This document shows positions 1,474-15,345 of a stretch of 40,687 bases of DNA, one piece after another. Position numbers and translations under genes: made by a program. A model generated the notes under the pieces. That model was not told the origin of the DNA. It worked only from the letters and a program-made list of their open reading frames with translations, and did no database searches. Source of the stretch: an uncultured Dehalococcoidaceae bacterium (GTDB lineage: Bacteria; Chloroflexota; Dehalococcoidia; Dehalococcoidales; RBG-16-60-22); NCBI GenBank assembly GCA_964480145.1, contig CAYZOI010000004.1:1-40687 (forward strand). Direction: 5' to 3'. The first letter of the stretch is position 1. Every line of letters starts with the position of its first letter.

Positions 1474-1496
1474 TGAACTTCTGAAGGGACATAACA

Positions 1497-2474
1497 GTGA
1501 AACGGGGCGGCTTGCAGAATTACATCATCAGAAGGCTGATTTACGCGTTCCTCATCGCCTTTGGTGTGGTGACCATCACCTTCATACTGCTGCGCATCGG
1601 CCCCAGCTCTCCGGCAGATAAGTATCTGGCCAATATATCCGCCCGCACCCAGGACCCAGCCGCGGTCGTTGAAGCCGTTGAATCGCGCTATGGCCTCGAC
1701 AAACCGATATACGAACAGTACTTTAACTATCTGGTCAATATGGCCCGCGGCGACTGGGGATGGTCATTCAGCACCTCCCTGCCGGTTATCGAGCTAATCA
1801 AACGCCACTGGGTCTATTCCTTCCAGCTTATCCTGCTCAGCATGCTCTTCGCCTCTTCCCTGGGCCTTCTGATTGGTATTTACTCGGCGGTGAAGCAATA
1901 CACCAAGACCGATTACATCGCCACCTTCTTTTCCTTCATCGGCATCTCTATACCCAACTTCTGGCTGGGCATTATGCTTATCCTGGTTTTCTCGGTGCAG
2001 CTGGGCTGGTTCAAGACCTACTACGATACCGGCCTGCCCCTGTTTTCCCTAGCCAACTTGAAAGCACTCGTCTTGCCCGTGATTACCCTCGGCACCGGCA
2101 TGATGGCCGGCTATACCAGATACGCCAGGTCGGCAACGCTGGAAAATCTGAGAAGAGATTTCGTGAAGACGGCCCGGGCCAAGGGTCTTCCGGAACACGT
2201 GGTTATCGGCAAGCACGTGCTCCGCAACGCCATTCTGCCCATCATCACCATCATCATGTTTGACCTGGCCGGCGTTGTCTTCGGAGGCGCCTACCTGACG
2301 GAAATCATCTTTGGCATTCCCGGACTTGGTCGAGTGTCCTTCAATGCCATCTTTGCCAACGATTACCCGGTGGTCATCACCATTACCCTTATCGGCGCCA
2401 TGGTGGTCCTGCTCACCAACCTGGCCACCGACATCGCCTATACCTGGCTTGACCCCAGAATAAGGTACGATTGA
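1497..2474 (+). CDS. Peptide ABC transporter permease (DppB/OppB-like)
   Basis: YIIRRL N-terminus, GLDKP..QYF, SIPNFWLG, EAA loop DFVKTARAKGL, terminal LDPRIRY; GTG start. Confidence 0.95.
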   Translation: MKRGGLQNYIIRRLIYAFLIAFGVVTITFILLRIGPSSPADKYLANISARTQDPAAVVEAVESRYGLDKPIYEQYFNYLVNMARGDWGWSFSTSLPVIELIKRHWVYSFQLILLSMLFASSLGLLIGIYSAVKQYTKTDYIATFFSFIGISIPNFWLGIMLILVFSVQLGWFKTYYDTGLPLFSLANLKALVLPVITLGTGMMAGYTRYARSATLENLRRDFVKTARAKGLPEHVVIGKHVLRNAILPIITIIMFDLAGVVFGGAYLTEIIFGIPGLGRVSFNAIFANDYPVVITITLIGAMVVLLTNLATDIAYTWLDPRIRYD

Positions 2475-2484
2475 GGAAATCTTG

Positions 2485-3579
2485 ATGAGGCGATTAAGCA
2501 AGATTTTCGGCGGACGGCGGAACCTGCTCTTCAGCGGGCTCATGCTGGCTTTGCTTTCCATCTTTCTTCTCGATTTATTCGTCGTCGACCGCATTTTCGG
2601 GCCTTTCGCCTATTTCTCCCTGTTCTTTGCCCTGCTCATCATTTTCTACGGTATATATCCGCTTTACGTGAACCGCCGCCTGACACGTTACTACTGGGAT
2701 AGAACCAAAAGACACCGGCTGGCCGTCATCGGGCTGGCATTCATCATCGTTCTGGTCGCGGTCGCCATCTTTGGCCCCTTCCTGACACAGGACCCGACCA
2801 GGGTGGACTTCCCGAACAAGAACCTGCCCCCGGTGGGCTTTTCTTCAGAACAATCCCTTTACGACCGGACAACGGGGCAGTTCATCATCACGGAGACGCC
2901 CGGCACCTGGCTTCACCCCCTCGGCACCGATGACAAGGGCCGTGACCTGCTTGCCATGCTCGTCTCCGGCACCAGGGTATCTCTGCAGGTCGGCCTCATG
3001 GCCACCCTTATCGCCATATTCATCGGCCTGATAATGGGGGTTGTTTCCGCCTACCTGGGAGGCTGGGCGGATAATGTCCTGATGCGCTTCACCGATATCA
3101 TGATGACCTTTCCTTTCTTCCTGCTGCTGGTATTCATCGTCTTCATCTTCGGCCCGTCGCTCTGGTTCATTATCCTGGTCATCGGGCTCACCGGCTGGAC
3201 GGGCACTGCCCGCCTGGTCAGAAGCGAGACCTTATCACTCCGCACGCGGGATTTCATCATGGCGTCAAAATCGCTGGGCGCCAGCGACCGCCGCATCGTC
3301 TTCCGCCATCTCATCCCCAATGTCTTGAGCTCGGTTATCGTCATCGCCACACTATCTATTCCCGGTGTCATTCTGGCCGAAGCTGCCCTGAGCTTTATCG
3401 GCCTCGGCGACCCCACCGTGACCAGCTGGGGCCTGGTTCTGCACGCCGGCCAGCGCAGCCTGGACACCGCCTGGTGGATTGCCGTTGAGCCCGGCATCAT
3501 GCTTTTCCTGACCGTGTTGGCCTTTAATTTTCTGGGGGACGGCATCAGGGATGCCTTCGACCCCAGAAGTCAGTTGTAG
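2485..3579 (+). CDS. Peptide ABC transporter permease (DppC/OppC-like) with extra N-terminal TM segments
   Basis: HPLGTDDKGRD, EAA-like DFIMASKSLGAS, EAALSFIGLG, FNFLGDGIRDAFDP; start is ATG 2485 or TTG 2482. Confidence 0.95.
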   Translation: MRRLSKIFGGRRNLLFSGLMLALLSIFLLDLFVVDRIFGPFAYFSLFFALLIIFYGIYPLYVNRRLTRYYWDRTKRHRLAVIGLAFIIVLVAVAIFGPFLTQDPTRVDFPNKNLPPVGFSSEQSLYDRTTGQFIITETPGTWLHPLGTDDKGRDLLAMLVSGTRVSLQVGLMATLIAIFIGLIMGVVSAYLGGWADNVLMRFTDIMMTFPFFLLLVFIVFIFGPSLWFIILVIGLTGWTGTARLVRSETLSLRTRDFIMASKSLGASDRRIVFRHLIPNVLSSVIVIATLSIPGVILAEAALSFIGLGDPTVTSWGLVLHAGQRSLDTAWWIAVEPGIMLFLTVLAFNFLGDGIRDAFDPRSQL

Positions 3580-3582
3580 AAA

Positions 3583-4551
3583 ATGAACAATACCATATTG
3601 CAAATCGACCAGCTGAAAACATATTTTTTCACCCGCAACGGGGTGGTCAAGGCGGTGGATGGCGTAAGCTTTGACCTGCGAAAGGGGGAGTGCCTGTGTC
3701 TGGTGGGTGAGTCGGGCTGCGGCAAGACCGCCACCGCGCTGTCAATCCTGCGGCTGGTCGATAGCCCGCCGGGCCGAACCGTAGGCGGTAACATACAATA
3801 TCACGGAGAGGACCTGCTCCAGAGTTCCGGGGCAAGGCTCCGGCAGGTACGCGGCAACCACATCGCCATGATTTTCCAAGACCCGCAGTCCTCGCTCAAT
3901 CCGGTGTTCACCGTGGGCGACCAGATAATAGAACAGATACGCCTCCATCTGAAACTGGGACACCGGCCGGCCCGCGACCGGGCGCTGTCCCTTATGGAAC
4001 AGGTCGGCATCCCCCAGGCGGAGGAGCGTATGAAATACTACCCGCACCAGTTTTCCGGCGGTATGAAGCAGCGGGTGATGATTGCGACTGCACTATCCTG
4101 CGACCCGGAGATTCTGATTGCGGACGAACCCACTACCGCCCTGGATACCACCATCAAGGCGCAGATTCTGGATATTTTCCGCGACCTGAAAAAAGAGAGG
4201 GATATGTCCATCCTGTTCATCACTCACGACCTGGGCACCGTGGCCGGGATTGCCGACCGCATTATCGTGATGTACGGCGGCCGTATCGCCGAAGCCGGCA
4301 ACGTCCTCGATATCTTTGACCGGCCGAAGCACCCGTACACCTGGGGCCTGCTGAACTGCCTGCCCACCATCTCTGAGCGCCGGGAAAAGATGACGCCCAT
4401 TCCGGGAGTTATTCCCAGCCTGATTGACCCGCCCGAGGGCTGTATCTTTTATCCCCGCTGTCAGTGGCGGATGCCGGTCTGTCAGCAAGAAAAACCTGAG
4501 GAATTTATTATTTCGGGGGAGCACATCGCCGCGTGTTATCTTTACGCATAG
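3583..4551 (+). CDS. Peptide ABC transporter ATP-binding protein (DppD/OppD-like)
   Basis: Walker A GESGCGKT, FSGGMKQR, ADEPTTALD, HPYT, C-terminal Cys motif GC.F..RC..C..C. Confidence 0.96.
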   Translation: MNNTILQIDQLKTYFFTRNGVVKAVDGVSFDLRKGECLCLVGESGCGKTATALSILRLVDSPPGRTVGGNIQYHGEDLLQSSGARLRQVRGNHIAMIFQDPQSSLNPVFTVGDQIIEQIRLHLKLGHRPARDRALSLMEQVGIPQAEERMKYYPHQFSGGMKQRVMIATALSCDPEILIADEPTTALDTTIKAQILDIFRDLKKERDMSILFITHDLGTVAGIADRIIVMYGGRIAEAGNVLDIFDRPKHPYTWGLLNCLPTISERREKMTPIPGVIPSLIDPPEGCIFYPRCQWRMPVCQQEKPEEFIISGEHIAACYLYA

Positions 4552-4563
4552 GTATCTAGTAAA

Positions 4564-5547
4564 ATGAGCCGGAAACTGTTAGAGGTCGAAAATCTGAAAA
4601 AATACTACCCGGTAACCGCCGGCCTGCTCGCCAGGCACGTTGCCGATGTCAAGGCGGTGGACGGGGTTTCCTTTTTCATCGCGGAGGGGGAGACGCTGGG
4701 CCTGGTTGGCGAATCAGGCTGCGGCAAGTCAAGCCTGGGCAGAGCTCTGCTGAGGTTGGAAGAGCCTACCTCGGGACAGGTATTCTATCGCGGGGACGAT
4801 ATTACCTCTTTTAACCGAAAACAGCTTAAGGAGCTGAGGAGAGAAGTACAGATGATTTTCCAGGACCCGCAGTCCTCCCTTGACCCGAGGATGACCATCG
4901 GCGATGCTATCGGCGAGGCTCTCCTCATCCACGGCGTGGGCAGCGAAAAAGAGAGACTGGAGCGGGTGGAAGAACTGCTGAAACGCGTGGGGCTTGAGTC
5001 GGGTCACGCCGCGCGCTATCCCCATGAATTGAGCGGCGGGCAGAAACAGCGCGCCGGCATTGCCCGCGCCCTGGCGGTAAGCCCGAAACTAATCGTCGCC
5101 GATGAACCGGTGAGCGCCCTGGACGTATCCGTTCAGGCGCAGATTCTAAACCTGATAACAGACCTGCAGCATGAATTCTCCCTGGCGTATCTTTTCATCG
5201 CCCATGACCTCGCTGTCATCGGGCAGGTATCAAGTCGCATTGCCGTCATGTACCTCGGACAGATAGTGGAACTCGCCGCCAGAGACGATTTATTCCGCCA
5301 GCCGCTTCACCCCTATACTCAGGCGCTGCTTTCGGCGGTATTTCTCCCGGACCCGCATCAGAAACGGAAACGGATTCCGCTGCCCGGCGAAGTCCCCTCG
5401 CCCATCGACCCGCCGCCGGGTTGTCGCTTCCACACCCGTTGCCCCAGAGCCATGAGCGTCTGCCGCCAGCAAACGCCAGTGCTTAAAGATATTGATGAGA
5501 ACCACCTGGTAGCCTGTCATCTCTACGATGGGGCAGACACAGCATAG
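4564..5547 (+). CDS. Peptide ABC transporter ATP-binding protein (DppF/OppF-like)
   Basis: [52 protein letters not shown]. Confidence 0.96.
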
Positions 5548-6564: not shown

Positions 6565-7320
6565 TTATCGGGCTGATACTTCTTCCCGCCATTCGGTTAT
6601 GCGCGATGACCAGATACGACCGACCGCCTTCTCCAGTATTTCCCGGCGGGGGTCCGGCACATCGAGCGGTGGTAAAACACGATCTTCAAACAATTTCAGT
6701 AAGGGGCAATGTTTCTGCAGTTGCAGCACTGTCTGGCGCGGGCCTCCATAGACCACATAGTCAATCAGTTTAGCCCGCGATTCCAATTGCTCCCGCGCGT
6801 GAAGGCATACCCTGTCCAGAAATTCCGCGGCCTGGTTTTCCCGACGCCGCTGGAATCGCTGCTGTGAGGAACCGCCCTTTTTATGTCTCCCGTGCACCAG
6901 CCCCGTCCCCACCTTGCTCGTAACGAGCTTCTCACCCTGGCACAGGCCCACAGCATAGGCACCGAGATGCACCAGAATCAGGCCAATCGTGTAATCAACC
7001 TTGAGCAGATTGGCCAGTGGCCCGGTGACAAATCCGCCGAACACAGCTTGCTCTCGCAGCGGGAAAGGAGGCGAAACCAGGTGCTTTTTTCCCCCGCCCC
7101 AGAACAGCACCGCTCCGTTTTTTGAGCCGGCAATCATGCCCGCCAGTTCTTCTGGGAAGCTTGATTCACTGCCGGCATTCCGCAGCACCTTATTAATCAC
7201 ATCTGCAGACAGTCCCGCGGGCAGGTAGACGGTGCTGGCCGCGACATCGCCGGTATTCTCCAGTTCGCCTAGAAACTCAAGCATTCTAACGCGACGCAGA
7301 TAATATGTACCCGATATCAA
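6565..7320 (-). CDS. acVLRF1-family (Vms1/ANKZF1-like, aeRF1 superfamily) peptidyl-tRNA release factor
   Basis: Catalytic loop VHGRHKKGGSSQQRFQRRRENQ flanked by LILVHLGAYAVG and VVYGGP; N-terminal NGAVLF..PPFPL resembles a remnant eRF1 N-domain. TTG 7320 is better spaced from SD AAAGGA than TTG 7329. Confidence 0.85.
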   Translation of the reverse strand: MISGTYYLRRVRMLEFLGELENTGDVAASTVYLPAGLSADVINKVLRNAGSESSFPEELAGMIAGSKNGAVLFWGGGKKHLVSPPFPLREQAVFGGFVTGPLANLLKVDYTIGLILVHLGAYAVGLCQGEKLVTSKVGTGLVHGRHKKGGSSQQRFQRRRENQAAEFLDRVCLHAREQLESRAKLIDYVVYGGPRQTVLQLQKHCPLLKLFEDRVLPPLDVPDPRREILEKAVGRIWSSRITEWREEVSAR

Positions 7321-7363
7321 TGCCGGCAATCCTTTCTATACTGTGAAAATAAGTTATGCGGAG

Positions 7364-9721
7364 CTACAGGCTGACCATGGTGGCGCCATCGCCGCCTTCA
7401 TCGTGCTTGCCGGTGCGGAAAGACTTGACCAGTGGGTGGGCGGCCAGGAAATCCCGCACAATCTGGCGCACCGTGCCGCCACCGATTCCGTGTACGACCC
7501 GTATTTCGCTGAGGTTGGCGAGCACTGCATCATTGAGGTAGATATCAAGCGCCACCTCTACCTCATCGGCCCGTTTGCCGCGAAGGTCAAGCTCGGTCGA
7601 TATCACCTTTGTTGCCATCCGCACCACGGCACCCCGTGTACGCGCTGGTTTTGGTTCGGTCACTTTTTCGACGCTCTCCAGCCCGATTTTGAGCTTGAGC
7701 TGCCCTGCCTGAACCTCGACTTCCTGTGTATCTTCAAAAACGGACAGTACCGTGGCCTGCAGTCCGATGTCCTTTAAATATACGGCGTCACCAGTTGAAA
7801 TGCGCTGCTCCGGTTCCGGCCCGCCGGTCTTTGGCGTCCACGCCTCGCTGCCCAGTTGCTCATGAGCCCCGGCCAGCGCCTTCTTTGCCTGTTCGAGCCT
7901 CTCCCGGGTCATTTCCCGGCGCAGCTCCGAATTTGCCTGACGAATTTGCCGGTGCAACTCGGCGGCTTCTCTGACAATCCCATCCCTGGCCTCCTGCAGC
8001 ACCACCCGTTTTTCTTCCTCCAAGCGCTCCAGCCGGTTTTTAATCTCGGTGTTCTGCGCTTCCACCTCATTTCGCTCATTTTCCAGGGCAGTACGAAGTT
8101 CCCCTGTTTTCTGCTTCTCAACCATCAGGTCGCTCAGCAGCGATTCCAATTCCAGAGTCCCTTTGGACAGCATACTCCTGGCCTCGTCAATGATTTCCGG
8201 CGGGACGCCAAGTCGCATGGCTGTAGCCAGAGCGTTGCTGCCGCCGGGTATGCCCACGGTAAGGTGATAGGTCGGCGCAAATGTCGCCGGGTCAAAGTCA
8301 AAGGAAGCGTTCTGCACCCCGGAAGTGGTATGGGCAAATGCCTTCAGGTCGCCATAATGAGTGGTGGCGACGGTCAGGATTTTTCGGTTCCGAAAGTGAA
8401 GCAGTACGGAACAGGCCAGGGCTGAGCCCTCGGTCGGGTCGGTACTTGTCCCCAGTTCATCGAGGAGCACCAGGCTGCACGGAGTGGCATTCCGTATAAT
8501 ACGGACAATATTGCCGACATGCCAGCTGAAAGTGGATAGCGTCTGCTCGATGCTCTGCTCATCACCGATGTCGGCAAAGACGCCATCGAAGACGGGCAGG
8601 CATGTTTCCGGCGAAGCGGGAACAGGTATACCGGCCTGTGCCATCAGGCTGAACAACCCGATGGTTTTGAGCGCCACCGTTTTGCCGCCGGTATTGGGGC
8701 CAGTGATGACCAGGATGGAGAAATCGCGGCCCATTTCCAGCGATAACGGCACTGCCTTCTCCTCGAGCAGAGGGTGCCTGGCCTCAACCAGTCTTATCGT
8801 CGCCTTTTCAGAGCTTTCTTTTTTTACCCCGTTGATATCTATAAGTACCGGCTCGCAGGCTCTCACCACGCGGGCATACCTTGCTTTGGCCAATGCCAGG
8901 TCCAGCTCCGCCACCCTTTCGATGCTTAGAGAAAGCTCTGTCTCATATCCGCCCACCCCGGCGCTGAGCTTCCGCAGTATTCTTTCCACCTCACGCTTTT
9001 CCTCATTCACCAGCTCACGGACGGTATTCCCCAGCTCCATGGTTGACCAGGGTTCCACAAATACGGTGGCTCCGGTGTTGGACACGTCATGGGTGATGCC
9101 TTTAATTTCCTTTCTCATTTCCACCCTGATTGGAATAACGTACCGGCCTTCCCGCTCGGTGATTATCGGTTCCTGGATTATCTTGTTTCCGCGCGGTGAC
9201 CTTATGATTGCCTCCAGACGGCTCCACAAATGCTCCCGTTCCTCTCTTAGCTGCCTCCTGGTTGCGGCCAGCTCCGGTGATGCCCGGTCGAGCACGTCGC
9301 CATTGGGGGAAATACAGCGGGCGATTTCCTTTTCCACTGAACGCAGTTCCACCAAGTCACTGGCAATATCCCAGAGCAAGGGCAGTTCTTCGGACACCGT
9401 GCGCAGGTAGCTGCGTGTCTGACGCATGGCAGCGAGAGTCTGTTGAAGCTCGACCAGGCTTTTCGGCTCGAGGATTCCCTCCAGCGACGCCATCCTGACG
9501 GCTTCCCGTATGTCCGAAACGCCGCCGATGGAAAAGCCCGGTTCCAGGTCAAGGAGCTGCCGTGCCTCCGCGGACTGGCCGAGCCGCAGCGCAACCTGTT
9601 CGTAATCAGTCAGCGGTTTCAGCCCCAATGCCAGGTCGTGGCTGGCTGAAAAAGAGGTGTAACCCGCCAGGATTATTGTTATCTGTGAAAACTCCAGTAT
9701 TTCCAGGCTTTTTTCATCCAT
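7364..9721 (-). CDS. mutS2: MutS2 (ribosome-collision sensor/splitting ATPase with Smr domain)
   Basis: ITGPNTGGKT Walker A, DIGDEQSIEQTLSTFS, DELGTSTDP, TTHY, coiled coil, KOW-like segment, Smr (LDLRG..VVHGIGGG). Start ATG 9721 follows SD GAGGA. Confidence 0.97.
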   Translation of the reverse strand: MDEKSLEILEFSQITIILAGYTSFSASHDLALGLKPLTDYEQVALRLGQSAEARQLLDLEPGFSIGGVSDIREAVRMASLEGILEPKSLVELQQTLAAMRQTRSYLRTVSEELPLLWDIASDLVELRSVEKEIARCISPNGDVLDRASPELAATRRQLREEREHLWSRLEAIIRSPRGNKIIQEPIITEREGRYVIPIRVEMRKEIKGITHDVSNTGATVFVEPWSTMELGNTVRELVNEEKREVERILRKLSAGVGGYETELSLSIERVAELDLALAKARYARVVRACEPVLIDINGVKKESSEKATIRLVEARHPLLEEKAVPLSLEMGRDFSILVITGPNTGGKTVALKTIGLFSLMAQAGIPVPASPETCLPVFDGVFADIGDEQSIEQTLSTFSWHVGNIVRIIRNATPCSLVLLDELGTSTDPTEGSALACSVLLHFRNRKILTVATTHYGDLKAFAHTTSGVQNASFDFDPATFAPTYHLTVGIPGGSNALATAMRLGVPPEIIDEARSMLSKGTLELESLLSDLMVEKQKTGELRTALENERNEVEAQNTEIKNRLERLEEEKRVVLQEARDGIVREAAELHRQIRQANSELRREMTRERLEQAKKALAGAHEQLGSEAWTPKTGGPEPEQRISTGDAVYLKDIGLQATVLSVFEDTQEVEVQAGQLKLKIGLESVEKVTEPKPARTRGAVVRMATKVISTELDLRGKRADEVEVALDIYLNDAVLANLSEIRVVHGIGGGTVRQIVRDFLAAHPLVKSFRTGKHDEGGDGATMVSL

Positions 9722-9746
9722 TTGCATTCCTCGCACGCACTGTTAG

Positions 9747-9755
9747 ATTATAACA
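9747..9755 (-). promoter_or_regulatory. Extended -10 promoter (TGtTATAAT) of mutS2-acVLRF1
   Basis: Minus strand reads CGTGTTATAAT about 25 nt upstream of the mutS2 ATG. Confidence 0.6.
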
Positions 9756-9814
9756 CGACACGGCCGACAACAGGCCATCCTCACTCCTCGGAAAACGAGC
9801 ACCCGGTAATTAAT

Positions 9815-9843
9815 TTGACTGCGCCCACCCCATAGTCTAGGAT
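9815..9843 (+). promoter_or_regulatory. Sigma70-type promoter TTGACT-N17-TAGGAT, predicting a leaderless DUF362 mRNA
   Basis: -35 at 9815-9820, -10 at 9838-9843; ATG 9851 lies 7 nt after the -10. Confidence 0.55.
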
Positions 9844-9850
9844 TAATGAA

Positions 9851-11095
9851 ATGAAAGACAGGGTATCCATTGTCAGCGCCGGGGAAATTGGCGTTGACGC
9901 TGCGGTGCGCCAGGCCATAGACCTGGCCGGCGGCCTGTCGGACTTAATCACACCCCGCTCCAAAGTGCTGATAAAGCCCAACCTCTGTCGCCCCGAACCA
10001 TCGGGCACGGGAGTCACCACCGATTGCCGTGTTACCGAGGCGGTCACCAGATTCGTTCTGGAGCTCAAGCCACAGTCAGTAGTAATCGGCGAGGGTGCCG
10101 GTGCCGGCTATGATTTCAGCGGCAGCACCAGCACGGAGGAAGCCTTCCGGGTCTCCGGCACGGCTGATGTTGCCGCCCGGCTTGGCGTCGAGCTGCGCAA
10201 CCTCAACCGCGACGAATGGGAGGAAGTGTCCGTAAAAAAACCCTACATCATGGACCGGGTGAAAATTGCCCGCACCGCACTGGAAAGCGATGTTACCATC
10301 AGTCTTCCCGTCATCAAAACCCATTTAAGGACCCTGATTACGCTGAGCCTGAAGAACACAAAAGGCGTCCTGCCCGGTGCCGAAAAGAGAAAGACGCATG
10401 CCCTGGGCCTGGATAAAGCCATCGCTGACCTGAATTCAGTGGCGAAACCAAACTACGTGGTGGTCGATGGGCTGGTGGGAATGCAGGGGCTGTGGGCATA
10501 CCCTCAAGACAAAGTCGAGCCGGGGCTTATCCTGGCCGGCAGAGAGCCATATGCGGTCGATACGGTGGGAACGTATCTGATGGGGTTCAGCCCTTCTCAG
10601 GTGATGCACCTGCAGTATTTCGCCGCCCGACAAAGGCAAAAGGCTGACCTTGAGCATATTGACGTTGTTGGCGAACCTCTTGAGGCACACAGACAAAACT
10701 TCAAGTCCGGCTGGGACGTATTCCGGGAGCGATACCCGGGCGTCCGTATCGTCGAGGGTAAATCAGCCTGCAGCGGCTGCAACGGAGAACTGATGGGCGC
10801 CCTGACGGCGATAAATAATTACGGCGACCGCAGCGCTCTGGACGGGCTGACCGTCGTCCTGGGCAACGCCCGGCGGGATGAGGTTACCGAGACTGAAAAG
10901 ACGGTTATCCTGGGTAAATGCGCTCGAAATCTAGCCCGCCTTGGCCTCTTTGCCAGGGGCTGCCCGCCAATGTACGATGATATCATCAGGGCTATCTGCC
11001 GCACCGTCGGCGCCGATGCGGATACAGTTATCACTTCCCTTGAACGCGAACGCAACCGCCGCTGGGACGAGACAGAACACCTGCTTGCCAGATAA
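9851..11095 (+). CDS. DUF362 domain protein with C-terminal putative Fe-S module
   Basis: VLIKPNL, IGEG, LPVIKTH, SLKN, VVDG, AVD motifs; C-terminal CSGC..GKC..GCPP. Confidence 0.85.
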   Translation: MKDRVSIVSAGEIGVDAAVRQAIDLAGGLSDLITPRSKVLIKPNLCRPEPSGTGVTTDCRVTEAVTRFVLELKPQSVVIGEGAGAGYDFSGSTSTEEAFRVSGTADVAARLGVELRNLNRDEWEEVSVKKPYIMDRVKIARTALESDVTISLPVIKTHLRTLITLSLKNTKGVLPGAEKRKTHALGLDKAIADLNSVAKPNYVVVDGLVGMQGLWAYPQDKVEPGLILAGREPYAVDTVGTYLMGFSPSQVMHLQYFAARQRQKADLEHIDVVGEPLEAHRQNFKSGWDVFRERYPGVRIVEGKSACSGCNGELMGALTAINNYGDRSALDGLTVVLGNARRDEVTETEKTVILGKCARNLARLGLFARGCPPMYDDIIRAICRTVGADADTVITSLERERNRRWDETEHLLAR

Positions 11096-11133
11096 CTCCG
11101 GTTTAAGAACGGCCAATGCGGTGACCGCACAGA

Positions 11134-12237
11134 TTACTTCTTGAGCAGGTCGGAGCAGTCCACCTTCTCGTACTCGCTCTGACAGGGATAACCTTTGGCG
11201 ACGTACATCGCCGGCTCATTCAAATCCATTATGGCGGAATACAGAGTAACCCACTGCTTGATGCCATCAACGTGGTCATCCAGATGACGGCAGATGGAAT
11301 TGGGCTGGCTGAAGTGGTCCCGGAAGACCCGCTGAAAGCTGTTGACGTCAATATGCCCCTTTTCCGGCTCCAGCAAGTGCCTGGCCCGCTGGTCACGGAG
11401 AAGCGTATCGGGGTATATTGATTTAAGCATATCGGCGAAGTCCTCCCGGCCTTTCAGAGCGATAAAGTGATTGCTGTGGGTAAGGATGCCGTTCTCGGGG
11501 TACAGAAAGCCCACGTCCACCGGTGACATTTCCAGACTTACGGCCTCACCATCGCGGTGGGCAATGAAAAAATTGCCTGATACCGTGGCCTTTGCCTGAA
11601 AAACTGCTCCCAGGGCCTGACTGAAGCTCTCTGAATTCAATATCCGACGCATGATTAAGAGACACGGCATCGTGGCGCCGAACGCGTCCCGGCTTGACGC
11701 CAGGCCATTGAAACAGGCACCGATTCCGACTGAGTTCATGCCGCGGTGAGCCAGTACTCCTGCCTCTGGCTGGGTTACCACAGTCGGTTTCCCTTGCTGG
11801 TCTGCTTTCAGAATGACGTTGAACTCCTGAAACCGGGGCAGCCAGTCCCAGGTCTGGCCGATTAACGTGTGACCATCTCTGGTTACCGGCGGCAGTGAAG
11901 ACACCGAGGTGCAGCCACCGCCCTGATACAGGCAGGAAATTCCCAGGTCAAAGTTAATCTCGTAGCGGGCATTTATGGCGACTATTTCATCAAGCGACAA
12001 CTCGGCGCCCTTAGCCACCCCCTCCAGTTCCTCCAGTATATCGGCATCATAACCACCGATAACCTCTACTAAAGCGTGGCTCTTTTCCAGAATTGCCTTG
12101 CGTTCGGCTCCCCACAGGGTGCGCCACATATCAAAGTAAACTTCAACGTTCTGCTGGATTATCTTCCGCGCCTGGGTACCATATTGCTGGCCACACTCAC
12201 AAGGTTTGCCCTTGACCGAAATTACCGGAGGCAGCAT
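11134..12237 (-). CDS. Peptidase C45 / acyl-CoA:6-APA acyltransferase family Ntn hydrolase
   Basis: INARYE, autoprocessing site GG|CTS, GQTWDW, GMNS.G, HSNHF, SICRH. Confidence 0.9.
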   Translation of the reverse strand: MLPPVISVKGKPCECGQQYGTQARKIIQQNVEVYFDMWRTLWGAERKAILEKSHALVEVIGGYDADILEELEGVAKGAELSLDEIVAINARYEINFDLGISCLYQGGGCTSVSSLPPVTRDGHTLIGQTWDWLPRFQEFNVILKADQQGKPTVVTQPEAGVLAHRGMNSVGIGACFNGLASSRDAFGATMPCLLIMRRILNSESFSQALGAVFQAKATVSGNFFIAHRDGEAVSLEMSPVDVGFLYPENGILTHSNHFIALKGREDFADMLKSIYPDTLLRDQRARHLLEPEKGHIDVNSFQRVFRDHFSQPNSICRHLDDHVDGIKQWVTLYSAIMDLNEPAMYVAKGYPCQSEYEKVDCSDLLKK

Positions 12238-12268
12238 AGTTTTGGCTCCTTTCTAAAATTCGACGGGC

Positions 12269-13813
12269 TCAGGCTATCCTTCGGTTATCTGCCTTCTTGA
12301 TAACCCCGTTGCCCAGCGAATTTTCTATCGGCGTGCTGACGTACTTTTCCATAACCTTGCGGAAGTGATATCCGTAGACACTCATGGTTATTGATATCGG
12401 CAATTTCCGCGGGTACTTCATTAACGTCAGCAAAAACAGTCTCCAGTAGTATCTCCGACCCTTTTCTCTGAAGCCCAGGACCCAGATGGATTTCAGGAAC
12501 GCCTCCAGTTCGTAGGAATGGAGTTTGTTCTTCTTGATAGTCGGCCGATATTCTTTCAGAAATGCCTTGACCCGCTCGTAGTACTGTTTTGGTGAATAAA
12601 TCGTGGACAGGATGTGCTTGTAGCCATCGATGAGAGTAGCCGAGTTCATCTTGGGGATGAAGTTAAGGGAAATATCATTGTTGTCACCGGTAAACGCTCG
12701 AACCAAACGGTTTTCTTTCTTGAGCCGCTGGTGCAGCCTGGTACCGGTCGGAGCATTAAGCAGGCCCACCATCGCCGTGACGATGCCGCTCTTCTGAATG
12801 AAATTTATCTGGCTCCTGAAGATGGATAGCGGGTCGCTGTCAAAGCCAACGATAAAGCCTCCCTGCACTTCCAGACCGTGATTCTGTATCTTTTTCACCG
12901 AAGCCACGAGGTCGCGATTCCGATTCTGCGCTTTATTGCATTCCGCTAGGCTTTCCTCGTTTGGCGTCTCAATGCCGACAAACACCCGGTCGAAACTGGC
13001 TTCCGCCATCATTTGCATCAGCGTATCATCATCCGCCAGGTTTATCGAGGCCTCCGTGGAGAGAACAAAGGGATATTTTTTACTTTTTTGCCATTTAATT
13101 ACAGCCGGTAGAATCTCCTCTTTCAACTTTTTCTTGTTCCCGATGAAGTTGTCATCGACGAAAAACACCCCGGAACGCCATCCGCTACTATACAGCACCT
13201 CCAGCTCGGCAATTACCTGCTCCCCGCTTTTGGTTCTTGGCCGGTGTCCGTTCAAGATAATGATATCGCAGAACTCACAGTTGAATGGACAGCCCCTGGA
13301 ATACTGGAGGCTCATTGAAGAATACTTTTTCTGGTTAATTAGCGACCAGAGCGGGGTGGGTGTTTCCCGGATTTCCGGTCGGGCCTTCGATAGATAAACG
13401 CGCTGCGGTTTCCTTTCCGCCAGGTCTTTAATAAACAGCGGCAGGGTTACCTCAGCTTCGCCGAGCACCAGGTGGTCCACCTCCCGGAACTCCCGGTATC
13501 CGGTGGTGAAGAGAGGGCCGCCGGCCACCGTCCTGGTTTCCAGATTTTGACAGCGCTTGATTACTTCCTTTACCGAATCAGCCTGCACCACCATGGCACT
13601 GATAAAGACAAAGTCGGCCCAGCTTATGTCCTCATCGGTGAGCTGGCTCACGTTCATGTCGATAAGTTTCTTCTCCCAGCTTTCAGGGAGCATTGCCGCC
13701 ACCGTTAGAAGGCCCAGCGGAGGGAAGGACGCCTTTTTGGAGACAAATTTCAGGGCGTACCGGAAACTCCAGAAAGTGTCCGGGTATTGCGGATAGACAA
13801 GCAGTATCTTCAT
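12269..13813 (-). CDS. B12-binding domain radical SAM protein (DUF4070-type)
   Basis: FPPLGLLTVAAMLP B12-binding N-terminus, SRGCPFNCEFC (CxxxCxxC), VDDNF, GIET, GFIVGFD. Confidence 0.93.
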   Translation of the reverse strand: MKILLVYPQYPDTFWSFRYALKFVSKKASFPPLGLLTVAAMLPESWEKKLIDMNVSQLTDEDISWADFVFISAMVVQADSVKEVIKRCQNLETRTVAGGPLFTTGYREFREVDHLVLGEAEVTLPLFIKDLAERKPQRVYLSKARPEIRETPTPLWSLINQKKYSSMSLQYSRGCPFNCEFCDIIILNGHRPRTKSGEQVIAELEVLYSSGWRSGVFFVDDNFIGNKKKLKEEILPAVIKWQKSKKYPFVLSTEASINLADDDTLMQMMAEASFDRVFVGIETPNEESLAECNKAQNRNRDLVASVKKIQNHGLEVQGGFIVGFDSDPLSIFRSQINFIQKSGIVTAMVGLLNAPTGTRLHQRLKKENRLVRAFTGDNNDISLNFIPKMNSATLIDGYKHILSTIYSPKQYYERVKAFLKEYRPTIKKNKLHSYELEAFLKSIWVLGFREKGRRYYWRLFLLTLMKYPRKLPISITMSVYGYHFRKVMEKYVSTPIENSLGNGVIKKADNRRIA

Positions 13814-13856
13814 ATTGTCTGACTGTACCTGCGAGCGAATATCAGGTTCTAAATAT

Positions 13857-13865
13857 ATTATATCA
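13857..13865 (-). promoter_or_regulatory. Extended -10 promoter (TGaTATAAT) of the radical SAM-C45 pair
   Basis: Minus strand TGATATAAT about 44 nt upstream of ATG 13813. Confidence 0.55.
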
Positions 13866-13891
13866 GCTTTCCCTCCTGATGTAACGCTTAC

Positions 13892-13975
13892 TTACTCTAT
13901 TAGTTCATACTTACCGCGGCGGCGTGTGCCCAGGACAATCTGGGGTTTCATTTCAACAACCGTGATTTCATTCAT
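13892..13975 (-). pseudogene. 27-codon ORF, probable N-terminal remnant of a GyrI-like domain gene
   Basis: SD GGGAGG (13984-13989) 8 nt before ATG; reads MNEITVVEMKPQIVLGTRRRGKYELIE*, like the first strands of GyrI-like effector-binding proteins. Confidence 0.5.
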
Positions 13976-14049
13976 CGCAAATGCCTCCCGATTACATTAA
14001 TTATCGAATTTTTGATACTATACCTGAACCACCGCCGCCATCATACTCT

Positions 14050-15345
14050 CTAGTAGTACACCTCGACCCCTCTCCCCTCCATCTGCCGTATGTCTGCTAT
14101 ATCCCGGGAGTTATCCGAAAGGTCAAGGTTGTTCCCTTTCAGGTCCAGCTGGTCGCCTTCTCCCAGGCCGTCATTTGCCAGCAGCGGGGAAATATCACTT
14201 ATTTGATTCTGGTCAAGGTTCAAGCGCTCCAGGCTACCCGGCGAGCGCAGTGGCGAGATGTCATTTATTTCATTGGCGGAAAGATAGAGAAGTCTCAGCC
14301 TGGTAAGCGGTGCCAGTGGCGCAATATCGCTGATTTTGTTGCTACCGAGCCTCAGTTCTTCCAGTTGAGTCAATAATGACAAAGTGGATATCTCCGCTAT
14401 TTTATTGCTGGAGAGGTCCAGTATTTTCAGGTTGGTAAGCGAGGCCAGCGGAGATATGTCACTGAACCCGTTACCATAGAGGTCGAGCAGGTTCAAAGCG
14501 GTCAGGGAGGCCAGTGGCGCAATATCGCTTATCCAGTTGGTCGAGAGGTGCAGCTCAACGAGGTTCGACAGCCCGGCCAGCGGTGATATATCTCGTATCT
14601 TGTTGGCAGAAAGGTACAGGGTAGTCAGGCTGGCAAGCGATGCCAGTGGTGAAATATCATCTATCTGGTTGCCGCCAAGTCCCAGCACCTCCAGCTTGGC
14701 GAGCGGCGATAGCGGGCTGAGCTCGCTTATCTTATTGCCGTGGAACTCCAGCTCCTTGAGAGCGCCGAGCGATGATAATGGCGAAACATCGGTTATTACA
14801 TTTGAGGACAGAGAGAGAAATGTCAGGCCGGTCAGTGACCCCAGTGATGAAATATCGCTGACCTGATTGAAAGATATATCCAGCCAGTTCAGGTTGGTGA
14901 GCGATGACAGGTGAGAGATATCTTCTATTTGATTGTACGCCAGGTTTAAAACGGTCAAGTTGACCATCGACGAAAGCGGGGTAATATCAACGGCCAGATT
15001 GCTAGACAGGTCAAGCGTAGTCAGATTGACCAGCGAGGCCAGTGGGGAAAGGTCAACAAGATAGTTATAGGCAAGGTCCAGTTTAACCAGGTTCGGGCAA
15101 TTTTCAATGCCGGACAGGTCGGAGATGTTAGCGTAATTAGCCGTGAGTTCGGTAAGTCCGTCTAAATCCTCCGCAGATATCGGCCCGGCAGACGGTTTGC
15201 CGATTGCGGTGCGCATCGCCGCTTCAAGGTTAAGGTCGGTGATTATTATTGTCTCCGGGTTCGCAGCCGGTAGCGCCGCACATGCCGAGATGAAAACAAC
15301 GCTTAATGATAATAAAACCACACCCTGCCATCGTATCTTGGGCAT
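14050..15345 (-). CDS. Internalin-like leucine-rich repeat lipoprotein
   Basis: Lipobox-like ISAC after hydrophobic signal, cap D.NLEAAMR.AI, about 15 x 22-aa repeats LxxLxLxxNxIxDIxPLxx. Confidence 0.92.
   Translation of the reverse strand: MPKIRWQGVVLLSLSVVFISACAALPAANPETIIITDLNLEAAMRTAIGKPSAGPISAEDLDGLTELTANYANISDLSGIENCPNLVKLDLAYNYLVDLSPLASLVNLTTLDLSSNLAVDITPLSSMVNLTVLNLAYNQIEDISHLSSLTNLNWLDISFNQVSDISSLGSLTGLTFLSLSSNVITDVSPLSSLGALKELEFHGNKISELSPLSPLAKLEVLGLGGNQIDDISPLASLASLTTLYLSANKIRDISPLAGLSNLVELHLSTNWISDIAPLASLTALNLLDLYGNGFSDISPLASLTNLKILDLSSNKIAEISTLSLLTQLEELRLGSNKISDIAPLAPLTRLRLLYLSANEINDISPLRSPGSLERLNLDQNQISDISPLLANDGLGEGDQLDLKGNNLDLSDNSRDIADIRQMEGRGVEVYY

What the first reader, a model, noticed from the sequence alone, without database searches (positions are those of the whole stretch)
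6565..9755. mutS2-acVLRF1 operon: candidate bacterial ribosome quality-control module coupling collision splitting to Vms1-type release
Seen: a full-length mutS2 is followed on the same strand, 34-43 nt later and with no terminator hairpin in the gap, by a VLRF1-type gene with the loop GRHKKGGSSQQRF. One extended -10 sits upstream of mutS2. Established: Bacillus MutS2 (RqcU) recognises collided ribosomes and promotes splitting, leaving 50S-peptidyl-tRNA; eukaryotic Vms1/ANKZF1 frees nascent chains from 60S-peptidyl-tRNA. I know of no demonstrated substrate for bacterial acVLRF1 proteins. Inference: the product of MutS2 is the substrate of acVLRF1, giving a two-gene, eukaryote-like rescue path that could bypass or complement RqcH/Pth.
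Basis: partly seen in the sequence, partly recalled or inferred. Interest (0 to 1): 0.82.

Follow-up and report, generated by a model that had tools for sequence, protein, structure and literature searches.

The report
Conserved MutS2 and release-factor-like gene pair
In a large group of Dehalococcoidia bacteria the gene for the ribosome-splitting enzyme MutS2 is followed in one operon by a small release-factor-like gene, and these bacteria lack the usual follow-up factor RqcH, which points to an untested, eukaryote-like way of freeing unfinished proteins from stalled bacterial ribosomes.

Summary
On the minus strand, full-length mutS2 (7364-9721) is followed after 43 nt (34 nt from the longest ORF) by an acVLRF1 gene (6565-7320) with the loop GRHKKGGSSQQRF. 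There is no terminator in the gap, and an extended -10 lies upstream of mutS2.

The pair is strongly conserved:
- 31 of 34 acVLRF1-bearing relatives have it.
- 73 of 75 testable species-level Dehalococcoidia loci have it.
- 9 of 19 strong acVLRF1 genomes in a 401-genome phylum sample have it.

The flanking genes differ from locus to locus, and acVLRF1 identity falls to about 37-45%. One metagenome contig carries the reverse order and sits outside the linked clade.

RqcH was found in 0 of 61 relatives and in no sampled family of the class. It was found in 186 of 401 genomes across the phylum. Pth, SmpB and RF1/RF2 are present in this genome.

The most likely reading is that MutS2 splits collided ribosomes and acVLRF1 then frees the nascent chain from the 50S-peptidyl-tRNA. 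That step is inferred, not shown.

Two results weaken the reading. Most RqcH-less, MutS2-bearing Chloroflexota have no acVLRF1. The loop glutamine is missing in 14 of 73 linked genes.

I found no paper describing the pairing. This scan had not noted it before; a parallel, untested note pairs acVLRF1 with HrpA.

The parts
9747..9755 (-). Extended -10 promoter element TGTTATAAT upstream of mutS2
   Evidence: Read directly. No good -35 at 16-18 nt. The consensus scan lists no full sigma-70 site here, since it requires both hexamers.
9728..9732 (-). Shine-Dalgarno GAGGA of mutS2, 6 nt before ATG 9721
   Evidence: Read directly.
7364..9721 (-). mutS2 (rqcU-type) coding sequence, 785 aa plus stop. 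The longest frame starts at GTG 9736.
   Evidence: TIGR01069 810 bits against a cut-off of 400. Pfam MutS_V, MSSS and Smr. Walker A GPNTGGKT and Walker B LLDELG are invariant in 17 linked orthologues.
8165..8713 (-). MutS domain V (ABC-type ATPase) of MutS2
   Evidence: PF00488, 112.6 bits, residues 342-524 of the 790-aa frame.
7676..7792 (-). MSSS / KOW-like SH3 domain of MutS2
   Evidence: PF20297, 33.8 bits, residues 649-687. In B. subtilis the KOW domain binds uS10 on collided ribosomes (PMC10897456, passages).
7367..7591 (-). Smr domain of MutS2 with DLR and HGIG motifs
   Evidence: PF01713, 77.5 bits, residues 716-790. The DLR/HGxG state matches the non-cleaving B. subtilis MutS2 (sequence; conservation; PMC10897456 passages).
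7321..7363 (-). Intergenic gap of 43 nt with no terminator or stable hairpin
7330..7337 (-). Shine-Dalgarno-like AGAAAGGA, 9 nt before TTG 7320
   Evidence: Read directly.
6565..7320 (-). acVLRF1 coding sequence, 251 aa plus stop. The longest frame starts at TTG 7329.
   Evidence: PF18859 122 bits; NF041024 140.7 bits against a cut-off of 125. AlphaFold2 model with mean pLDDT 95.1. Best PDB fold matches are aRF1/eRF1.
6853..6891 (-). Catalytic-type loop GRHKKGGSSQQRF (residues 147-159 of the 254-aa frame), carrying the family motif GGxSQ
   Evidence: An archaeal RF1 alignment places the GGQ glutamine on S154. Burroughs and Aravind name GGxSQ as the acVLRF-1 motif (PMC6514570, passage).

Best explanation
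mutS2 and the acVLRF1 gene form a two-gene operon that has been kept together across a large Dehalococcoidia clade. They most likely act one after the other in rescuing collided ribosomes.

Proposed sequence:
1. MutS2 recognises a disome through its KOW and Smr domains.
2. Its ABC-type ATPase splits the stalled ribosome.
3. acVLRF1 enters the vacant A-site side of the resulting 50S-peptidyl-tRNA. It is an eRF1-fold protein with a truncated N-domain, no decoding loop and no C-domain.
4. acVLRF1 places its GGxSQ loop at the peptidyl-transferase centre and detaches the nascent chain. This happens either by ester hydrolysis or, as in Vms1/ANKZF1, by cutting the tRNA 3' end.
5. No alanine tail is added, because RqcH was not found in the lineage.

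Shown here: gene identities, operon anatomy, conservation of the linkage, the phyletic pattern and the fold. Inferred: the substrate (50S rather than 70S), the chemistry and the order of action.
For: Families and motifs.

Operon anatomy:
- The gap is 34-43 nt with no terminator or hairpin.
- In 21 loci from at least 10 families the order and strand are always the same. The stop and start overlap by 4 nt in 5 loci and by 1 nt in 1 locus.
- In 63 species-level loci the median gap is 34 nt, and 53 of 63 gaps are 50 nt or less.

Linkage:
- 31 of 34 acVLRF1-bearing genomes among 61 relatives are linked. Two are undetermined at contig edges and one is unlinked.
- 73 of 80 species-level loci are linked. 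Five have no room at a contig edge and two are not adjacent.
- 9 of 19 strong acVLRF1 genomes in the phylum sample are linked.

Flanks vary:
- The commonest upstream neighbour occurs in 6 of 47 loci (35 distinct clusters).
- The commonest downstream neighbour occurs in 5 of 55 loci (41 distinct clusters).

Linked acVLRF1 copies are only 37-50% identical between families.

A reverse-order pair (L221) lies outside the linked clade in a quick tree. Starred branches there force at least 2 changes of the linkage state.

Presence and absence among the 61 relatives: both genes 32, acVLRF1 only 2, mutS2 only 3, neither 24. The four f1 genomes that lack acVLRF1 (75-96% complete) also lack mutS2.

RqcH (PF05833) was found in 0 of 61 relatives and in 0 genomes of every sampled family of the class. 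It was found in 186 of 401 genomes in the phylum. None of the 19 strong acVLRF1 genomes has it.

The Smr domain carries DLR/HGxG, as in B. subtilis MutS2, which splits ribosomes without cutting mRNA (PMC10897456 passages).

The decoding (NIKS) stretch of aRF1 falls in a gap of the alignment, and the match ends before the aRF1 C-domain. This fits codon-independent action.

Vms1 acts on 60S-peptidyl-tRNA and depends on its GxxQ residues (PMC5989216 passages).

Against: - No experiment exists for any acVLRF1 protein.
- At least 147 of the 333 MutS2-bearing Chloroflexota genomes lack RqcH (333 minus 186), yet only 15 of the strong acVLRF1 genomes carry mutS2. Most such genomes therefore manage without acVLRF1.
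- Pth, the release factor of B. subtilis RQC, is present in this genome and could do the job alone.
- acVLRF1 occurs without mutS2 in G365, G421, G282, G141 and G026. It occurs unlinked in G145, G163, G453, G381, G253 and G428. It is mostly unlinked in a marine clade, where 61 of 66 testable loci have no mutS2 beside it.
- The linked copies form one clade, so most of the conservation may trace to a single ancient event. Related genomes are not independent.
- The loop Gln is absent in 14 of 73 linked genes, and the canonical GGQ occurs in 0 of 73.
- By sequence and fold the protein is nearer to aRF1/eRF1 than to Vms1. The family profile hits no Vms1 chain at E <= 10, and the fold match to Vms1 has E 4.3e-4 and TM 0.42.
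Confidence: 0.5

Rival explanations
1. acVLRF1 is a codon-independent release factor for intact 70S ribosomes with an empty or accessible A site, doing an ArfB-like job. It is co-expressed with MutS2 because both deal with stalled ribosomes, but it does not use the product of MutS2.
For: - The protein lacks the decoding loop but keeps the release-factor M-domain and its loop.
- No ArfB-sized RF-1-domain gene was found in this genome. The only two matches lie in frames of 365 and 370 aa, the size of RF1 and RF2.
- Other eRF1-fold bacterial proteins such as Balon bind 70S A sites. Balon chains are among the fold matches.
- acVLRF1 exists without mutS2 in several genomes.
Against: - tmRNA-SmpB is available in this genome for non-stop 70S rescue (SmpB found).
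- The Smr domain has the non-cleaving DLR state, so MutS2 is not expected to create non-stop 70S substrates.
- This reading does not explain why MutS2, of all genes, is the one conserved neighbour.
- Vms1, the characterised member of the clade, works on the large subunit alone (PMC5989216 passages).
Confidence: 0.2
2. acVLRF1 is a Pelota/Dom34-like A-site partner of the MutS2 ATPase. It binds the stalled ribosome and helps MutS2 to split it, as Pelota helps the ABC ATPase ABCE1. Its own release activity would be weak or absent.
For: - MutS2 carries an ABC-type ATPase.
- eRF1-family members include inactive splitters such as Dom34 (PMC10897456 and PMC6514570 passages).
- The canonical GGQ glutamine is Ser in 73 of 73 linked genes, and the +2 Gln is lost in 14 of 73.
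- Pelota and Dom34 chains appear among the fold matches.
- Stop-start overlaps in several loci would fit, though do not show, production of the two proteins in fixed proportion.
Against: - The loop is otherwise strictly kept. G152, G153, S155 and R158 are invariant, and R148, H149, F159, R161 and R163 are at least 90% conserved in 94 diverse members. Burroughs and Aravind describe poor conservation of the catalytic loop in the inactive Dom34 family (PMC6514570 passages).
- B. subtilis MutS2 splits disomes in vitro without such a partner (PMC10897456 passages).
- Most MutS2-bearing genomes have no acVLRF1.
Confidence: 0.12
3. The adjacency is inherited gene order from one ancestral arrangement in Dehalococcoidia, with no functional tie between the two proteins.
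For: - Linked copies form a single clade (97* in the quick tree; 97/92 in the careful tree), so one origin explains nearly all cases.
- Elsewhere in the family, conserved neighbours look like mere local synteny. An example is the Abhydrolase_10 gene upstream in 31 marine loci.
Against: - Flanking genes turned over almost completely while the pair stayed. There are 35 distinct upstream clusters in 47 loci and 41 distinct downstream clusters in 55 loci.
- The pair persists down to 37-45% acVLRF1 identity.
- Gaps are short or overlapping.
- The two genes are present or absent together in 56 of 61 relatives.
- A reverse-order pair exists outside the clade.
- Both families are ribosome-rescue families on independent grounds.
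Confidence: 0.1

Closest known systems
Eukaryotic RQC termination: ribosome splitting (RQT or Dom34-Hbs1-Rli1) followed by Vms1/ANKZF1 acting on 60S-peptidyl-tRNA
   Same: A splitting ATPase is followed by an eRF1-fold, codon-independent factor of the VLRF-1 clade with a GxxQ-type loop (GSSQ here). The two steps proposed here mirror it (PMC5989216 and PMC11317155 passages).
   Different: - The splitter here is MutS2, which is unrelated to RQT.
- acVLRF1 has none of the Vms1 accessory domains. Pfam reports only release-factor-type domains.
- There is no RqcH/Rqc2 tailing step.
- Direct similarity to Vms1 is weak: fold E 4.3e-4, and no sequence hit at E <= 10.
- Activity is untested.
Bacillus subtilis RQC: MutS2/RqcU, RqcH, RqcP/YlmH, Pth
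   Same: The MutS2 architecture is the same (core, ATPase, KOW-like, Smr with DLR/HGxG) and Pth is present.
   Different: - RqcH was not found in 0 of 61 relatives.
- No S4-domain match in a frame of the size recalled for RqcP/Hsp15 (about 90-130 aa) was seen in this 84%-complete genome. The five S4 matches lie in frames of 212-437 aa.
- An extra release-factor-like gene is fused into the mutS2 operon. This is not described for Bacillus in the passages read.
acVLRF-1 family as defined by Burroughs and Aravind 2019 (Pfam PF18859, NCBIfam NF041024)
   Same: The window's protein is a member. It passes the HMM cut-offs, has the GGxSQ loop and a short N-terminal region instead of a decoding domain.
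   Different: [quoted passage not shown] Here one large clade is tied to mutS2.
Pelota/Dom34 with ABCE1/Rli1 (archaeal and eukaryotic splitting pair)
   Same: An eRF1-fold protein is paired with an ABC-type ATPase on stalled ribosomes.
   Different: Pelota lacks a conserved catalytic loop, whereas acVLRF1 keeps one. MutS2 splits without a partner in B. subtilis.
ArfB (YaeJ), the bacterial codon-independent release factor
   Same: A small rescue factor that releases peptides without a stop codon.
   Different: It has an unrelated fold (bacterial RF-1 domain with a C-terminal tail that probes the mRNA channel) and acts on 70S. No ArfB-sized RF-1-domain match was found in this genome.

Membership tests
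acVLRF-1 (PF18859 / NF041024) | Scores above the curated HMM cut-offs | tested here: met
   PF18859 122 bits against 27.1. NF041024 140.7 bits against 125.
acVLRF-1 (PF18859 / NF041024) | GGxSQ motif in the catalytic loop (Burroughs and Aravind 2019) | tested here: met
   The window has GGSSQ; the motif is named in PMC6514570. In linked orthologues GGxSQ occurs in 59 of 73. In 94 diverse members Gln at that position occurs in 69 of 94.
acVLRF-1 (PF18859 / NF041024) | No stop-codon-recognition domain (a short N-terminal region instead) and no C-terminal eRF3-binding domain | tested here: met
   The family profile aligns to aRF1 residues 7-270. The aRF1 stretch that carries its decoding loop falls in an insertion relative to acVLRF1, and the match ends before the C-domain. 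The protein is 251 aa.
acVLRF-1 (PF18859 / NF041024) | eRF1-type (RNase H-like) M-domain fold | tested here: met
   AlphaFold2 model with pLDDT 95.1. Foldseek: aRF1 4af1 at E 4.7e-12 and eRF1 chains at E 1e-10 to 1e-7.
Vms1/ANKZF1 (eukaryotic VLRF-1) | GxxQ loop with essential Gly, Gln and upstream Arg | tested here: met
   G153-S-S-Q156 with R148 upstream. The Vms1 residues G292, Q295 and R288 are from PMC5989216 passages. The Gln is not universal among orthologues.
Vms1/ANKZF1 (eukaryotic VLRF-1) | Accessory domains (Rei1-type zinc finger, ankyrin repeats, VIM for Cdc48) | tested here: not met
   Pfam finds only acVLRF1, baeRF_family10 and eRF1_2 on the 254-aa frame.
Vms1/ANKZF1 (eukaryotic VLRF-1) | Detectable direct similarity to Vms1 | tested here: inconclusive
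   There is no Vms1 chain among the PDB sequence hits at E <= 10. The fold match to 6r84_R has E 4.3e-4 and TM 0.42 over 194 columns, weaker than the matches to aRF1/eRF1.
Vms1/ANKZF1 (eukaryotic VLRF-1) | Acts on large-subunit-peptidyl-tRNA; cuts the tRNA 3' CCA end | not testable with these tools
   Needs biochemistry.
MutS2 / RqcU | Equivalog HMM; no mismatch-recognition domain; MutS_V ATPase, KOW-like and Smr domains | tested here: met
   TIGR01069 810 bits against 400, covering model positions 2-790 of 790. PF00488, PF20297 and PF01713 all hit.
MutS2 / RqcU | Intact Walker A and Walker B motifs | tested here: met
   GPNTGGKT and LLDELG are present and invariant in 17 linked orthologues.
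MutS2 / RqcU | Binds collided ribosomes and splits them | not testable with these tools
   Shown for B. subtilis only (PMC10897456 passages).
Canonical bacterial RQC (MutS2-RqcH-RqcP-Pth) | RqcH (NFACT_N) present | tested here: not met
   PF05833 matched 0 of 61 relatives, including the window's own genome. The control search matched B. subtilis and 9 other genomes. It matched 0 genomes in all sampled families of the class.
Canonical bacterial RQC (MutS2-RqcH-RqcP-Pth) | Pth present | tested here: met
   PF01195 213 bits at G000:C93.

The most novel reading that the evidence does not exclude
Dehalococcoidia run a stripped-down, eukaryote-like ribosome quality-control pathway in which MutS2 splits collided ribosomes and a dedicated Vms1-clade factor, acVLRF1, detaches the nascent chain from the 50S subunit. 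It may do so by cutting the tRNA 3' end rather than hydrolysing the ester. There would be no RqcH tailing. This would be the first dedicated RQC termination factor in bacteria and the first function for the acVLRF1 family. If the untested note pairing acVLRF1 with the splitting helicase HrpA in actinobacteria also holds, acVLRF1 would be a general 'post-splitting' release factor that different bacterial lineages have attached to different splitters.
Probability: 0.4. Interest if true: 0.88.

Novelty: new variant of a known kind. Interest (0 to 1): 0.72.

Why it matters
How the nascent chain leaves the 50S subunit after splitting is the least understood step of bacterial ribosome quality control. 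A 2024 paper states that no dedicated termination factor is known and that the general enzyme Pth does the job in Bacillus (PMC11317155, passage).

Bacterial Vms1-like proteins have no known function. They were described as standalone (PMC6514570, passage).

A conserved operon joining the splitter to a Vms1-clade factor, in a lineage without RqcH, provides:
- a concrete, testable candidate for that missing factor;
- a context in which to test whether release is by hydrolysis or by tRNA cleavage;
- a view of how the eukaryotic arrangement of splitter followed by Vms1 could have a bacterial counterpart.

It also supports a ribosomal role for MutS2, rather than a DNA role, in Chloroflexota.

Tried and rejected
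- **Complex prediction.** MutS2 residues 1-700 with acVLRF1, both given as 17-row alignments, returned 'no answer' (score 0.00 against a mark of 0.32). This says nothing either way. The Smr domain and the MutS2 dimer were not included.
- **Fused MutS2-acVLRF1 proteins.** A search among proteins of 446-2000 aa found none at E <= 1e-5. The tool calls this weak evidence.
- **First locus scan.** A 21-row alignment was used instead. The 80 loci it returned are therefore biased towards the clade of the query.
- **RNA evidence.**
  - Contigs from two libraries registered as metatranscriptomic bridge the gap: X1 record 3 (7246-7474) and X2 record 11 (7246-7544), both about 92% identical to the window. 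X1's RNA status is a guess.
  - One RNA-seq run (X3) holds two identical pieces inside acVLRF1 (6691-6836 and 6871-7021).
  - Contigs cannot show a single transcript and DNA carry-over is possible, so I do not count this as proof of co-transcription. Uncovered bins are not interpreted.
- **Promoter-like match inside acVLRF1.** The match at 7329-7300 (9 of 12) lies inside the conserved N-terminal coding region. I rejected it as a promoter.
- **Neighbours of unlinked acVLRF1 copies.** These are rhomboid/PhoU/PHO4/metallo-beta-lactamase, enolase-like, cyclophilin-like, PCC, SerRS-containing frame and luciferase-like. None suggests translation. No HrpA lies beside the two f48 copies.
- **Abhydrolase_10 gene upstream of marine acVLRF1.** It occurs in 31 loci. 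I considered it as a partner and set it aside, because the whole neighbourhood is syntenic there.
- **Clean joint deletion in f1 genomes lacking both genes.** I considered testing this but did not run it. Adjacent genes lost by one deletion would not be independent evidence.

Full report
**Observation.**

The region holds two minus-strand genes.

The upstream one is a full-length MutS2:
- It scores 810 bits against TIGR01069 (cut-off 400) and covers the whole model.
- It carries Pfam MutS_V, the KOW-like MSSS domain and Smr.
- Its start is most likely ATG 9721, preceded by GAGGA. TGTTATAAT, an extended -10, sits at 9755-9747.

The downstream one is an acVLRF1-family protein:
- PF18859 scores 122 bits, and NF041024 scores 140.7 bits against a cut-off of 125.
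- The loop GRHKKGGSSQQRF is present.
- Its best start is TTG 7320, 9 nt after AGAAAGGA. Homologues begin 1-3 residues into the longest frame.

The gap is 43 nt, or 34 nt from the longest ORF. It holds no terminator-like site and no hairpin better than shuffled sequence. A convergent dehydrogenase gene and a divergent DUF362 gene bound the pair.

**Organism.**

The window belongs to a 1.56-Mb, 126-contig, 84%-complete genome. Its homologues are labelled Dehalococcoidia or Chloroflexota.

**What the small protein is.**

- An AlphaFold2 model built on 94 diverse homologues is confident (pLDDT 95.1).
- Its best PDB fold matches are archaeal and eukaryotic RF1 (E 4.7e-12 and below). Balon, Pelota/Dom34 and yeast Vms1 follow (6r84_R, E 4.3e-4, TM 0.42).
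- By sequence, the family profile matches aRF1 residues 7-270 at E 3.8e-24 and matches no Vms1 chain at E <= 10.
- In that alignment the aRF1 segment carrying the decoding loop is an insertion relative to acVLRF1, and the match ends before the aRF1 C-domain.
- The protein is therefore a release-factor M-domain on a trimmed N-domain scaffold. This agrees with the family description (PMC6514570, passages).

Conservation of the loop in the 94 homologues:
- G152, G153, S155 and R158 are invariant.
- R148, H149, F159, R161 and R163 are at least 90% conserved.
- The residue aligned with the GGQ glutamine is Ser in 62, Gln in 17 and other in 15.
- The +2 position, the Q of the family's GGxSQ motif, is Gln in 69, Ala in 19 and Ser in 6.

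Among 73 mutS2-linked genes, GGQ occurs in 0, GGxSQ in 59, and no loop Gln at all in 14.

In yeast Vms1 the corresponding G292, Q295 and R288 are needed for function (PMC5989216, passages).

**Conservation of the linkage.**

*Relatives.* Among 61 genomes of the same order (36 in the window's family, besides the window's own genome), 34 have acVLRF1 and 34 have MutS2 above the cut-off.
- Comparing coordinates, acVLRF1 lies directly downstream of mutS2 on the same strand in 31 of the 34.
- Two cases are cut by contig ends (G001, G002).
- One (G026) has acVLRF1 but no mutS2 was found.
- Presence and absence: both 32, acVLRF1 only 2, mutS2 only 3, neither 24.
- Four genomes of the window's family without acVLRF1 (75-96% complete) also lack mutS2.
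- Relatives are not independent, so these are descriptive counts.

*Phylum sample.* In an evenly drawn sample of 401 Chloroflexota genomes, 59 match PF18859. Only 19 besides the window's genome do so strongly (61 bits or more, in frames of 208-304 aa). The rest are longer proteins of other release-factor-like families. Of those 19:
- 9 have the adjacent pair, in families f27, f29, f31, f32, f33, f37 and f39.
- 6 have both genes apart.
- 4 have no mutS2.

*Species-level scan.* A scan of one genome per species found 276 relatives. Of the best 80 loci:
- 73 have mutS2 immediately upstream.
- 5 have no room at a contig edge.
- 2 are not adjacent: the G026 contig, and a partial second copy in a genome whose other copy is linked.
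- acVLRF1 identity to the window runs from 94% down to 45%, and MutS2 identity from 95% down to 52%.
- This set is biased towards the query's clade, because the search pattern came from close homologues.

*Flanks.*
- In 21 loci from at least 10 families, the order and strand of the pair are constant. No flanking gene recurs in more than 6 loci.
- In 63 species-level loci where my simple ORF caller put the two genes in succession, the upstream neighbour falls in 35 clusters over 47 loci and the downstream neighbour in 41 clusters over 55 loci. Ten linked loci were dropped by that caller.
- Gaps are short: median 34 nt, with 53 of 63 at 50 nt or less.
- Among the 21 loci there are five 4-nt stop-start overlaps and one 1-nt overlap.

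**Where the linkage stops.**

- A careful tree of 33 acVLRF1 proteins places all 21 linked copies in one clade of 28 rows. That clade also contains a long-branched unlinked paralogue group (G365, G421, G145, G163 and the second copy of G301).
- In a quick tree of 51 rows, the linked copies and four further linked metagenome copies form a 27-row clade (support 97) with two unlinked members, G026 and G428.
- Most of the signal is thus one old linkage that has been kept.
- A metagenome scan aimed at a more distant, mostly marine clade gave 80 loci: 4 with mutS2 upstream, 1 (L221) with mutS2 directly downstream, 61 without, and 14 with no room.
- L221 falls outside the linked clade, and starred branches force at least two changes of state. 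This hints at a second origin, but it rests on one contig and a quick tree.
- Neighbours of unlinked copies show no translation theme.

**Other rescue genes.**

- RqcH (NFACT_N) was found in 0 of 61 relatives, while the control genomes matched.
- Across the phylum it was found in 186 of 401 genomes, but in none of the sampled families of the window's class. It was also absent from families f48, f50 and f52.
- None of the 19 strong acVLRF1 genomes has it.
- MutS2 is present in 333 of 401 genomes. At least 147 MutS2 genomes therefore lack RqcH, and most of those have no acVLRF1 either. For example, family f50 has MutS2 in 24 of 24, RqcH in 0 of 24 and acVLRF1 in 0 of 24.
- These two phylum tallies include the unpublished genomes G203, G096 and G285. 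No other statement here depends on them.
- Across bacteria, 97% of RqcH genomes have MutS2, and 87% of genomes without RqcH also lack MutS2 (PMC11633108, passages). MutS2 without RqcH is therefore unusual in general, though common in this phylum.
- The window's genome has Pth, SmpB and two RF-1-domain genes of RF1/RF2 size, with no ArfB-sized match.
- Its five S4-domain matches lie in frames of 212-437 aa. None is of the size I recall for RqcP/Hsp15. The genome is incomplete, so these absences are weak.

**Mechanism.**

- The MutS2 here has intact Walker motifs and an Smr domain with DLR and HGIG. This is the state of B. subtilis MutS2, which splits disomes with ATP and does not cut mRNA (PMC10897456, passages). 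A splitter leaves 50S-peptidyl-tRNA.
- The gene tied to it encodes a codon-independent release-factor fold of the clade whose one characterised member, Vms1, frees chains from 60S-peptidyl-tRNA (PMC5989216, passages). PMC11317155 describes Vms1 as a tRNA endonuclease (passage).
- The simplest reading is therefore sequential action: MutS2 splits, then acVLRF1 releases, with no tailing.
- I put this at about 0.5. The broader claim that the two genes work in the same rescue pathway I put at about 0.8.
- Rivals: an ArfB-like role on 70S (0.2), a Pelota-like helper of the MutS2 ATPase (0.12) and mere inherited gene order (0.1).
- Gln-less loops in 14 of 73 linked genes fit either a chemistry that does not depend on that side chain or a partial shift to a non-catalytic role. 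I cannot tell which.

**Expression.**

- Contigs from two libraries registered as metatranscriptomic span the gap at about 92% identity.
- One RNA-seq run holds identical pieces of acVLRF1.
- This is compatible with expression and read-through but proves neither.

**Literature.**

- Searches for 'acVLRF1' gave 0 papers.
- Searches for 'VLRF1' or 'baeRF', for VLRF1/bacterial/MutS2, for Vms1/MutS2/RqcH/peptidyl-tRNA and for MutS2/eRF1/gene neighbourhood/Vms1-like/Dehalococcoidia turned up no description of the pairing.
- Burroughs and Aravind call prokaryotic VLRF-1 proteins standalone.
- Park et al. 2024 mention no neighbourhood link in the passages searched.
- I read passages only, not whole papers. 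Cerullo et al. 2022 and Svetlov et al. 2024 were seen only as citations. Supplementary files, where neighbourhood tables would be, were closed.

**Earlier notes of this scan.**

- None describes this pair.
- One untested note (e1-3584886) pairs acVLRF1 with the splitting helicase HrpA in soil actinobacteria. If true, that would be an independent parallel.

**Verdict.**

It is a conserved MutS2-acVLRF1 operon in an RqcH-less lineage, and a well-founded, testable candidate for a dedicated bacterial RQC release step.

Noticed in passing
L221:8001-11160: A metagenome contig has the reverse order: acVLRF1 (8001-8651, +) followed about 120 nt later by a full-length mutS2 (8776-11160, 36% identical to the window's). 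Its acVLRF1 falls outside the linked clade in a quick tree. This may be a second origin of the linkage.
   Followed up: partly
L147-L226 (e.g. L175:5983-8732): In a marine clade of acVLRF1 with loop GG[S/Q]SQRR, 31 loci have a roughly 660-aa Abhydrolase_10 (PF20091) gene directly upstream on the same strand, with gaps from -20 to +155 nt. The whole neighbourhood is syntenic there, so the meaning is unclear.
   Followed up: partly
L052:5702-6451, L056:5705-6454, L051, L055, L062: A long-branched paralogue group of acVLRF1 in Dehalococcoidia is never next to mutS2. In two genomes it follows a PhoU_div-PHO4-PhoU-metallo-beta-lactamase-rhomboid gene row. G301 has both a linked copy and this paralogue.
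   Followed up: partly
G162:C122:78771-81185 (not fetched): One Chloroflexota genome has its mutS2 match inside a 1752-aa open frame, about twice the normal length. This may be a fusion.
   Followed up: no
window 6565-7320 (residues C175 and C208 of the 254-aa frame): Two cysteines are at least 90% conserved across 94 diverse acVLRF1 proteins. Their role is unknown.
   Followed up: no
window 11134-15345: Upstream of the pair on the minus strand lie an acyl-CoA:6-APA acyltransferase-like gene (11134-12237), a B12-binding radical SAM gene with DUF4070 (12269-13813) and a 431-aa protein made almost wholly of leucine-rich repeats (14050-15345). The last is an unusual gene for a 1.6-Mb Dehalococcoidia genome.
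   Followed up: no
window 106-5547: An Opp/Dpp-type peptide ABC transporter operon on the plus strand: substrate-binding protein, two permeases and two ATPases.
   Followed up: no
phylum sample, families f50 and f52: Whole Chloroflexota families have MutS2 (24 of 24 and 16 of 16) but no RqcH and no strong acVLRF1. How they clear split 50S complexes is open.
   Followed up: no
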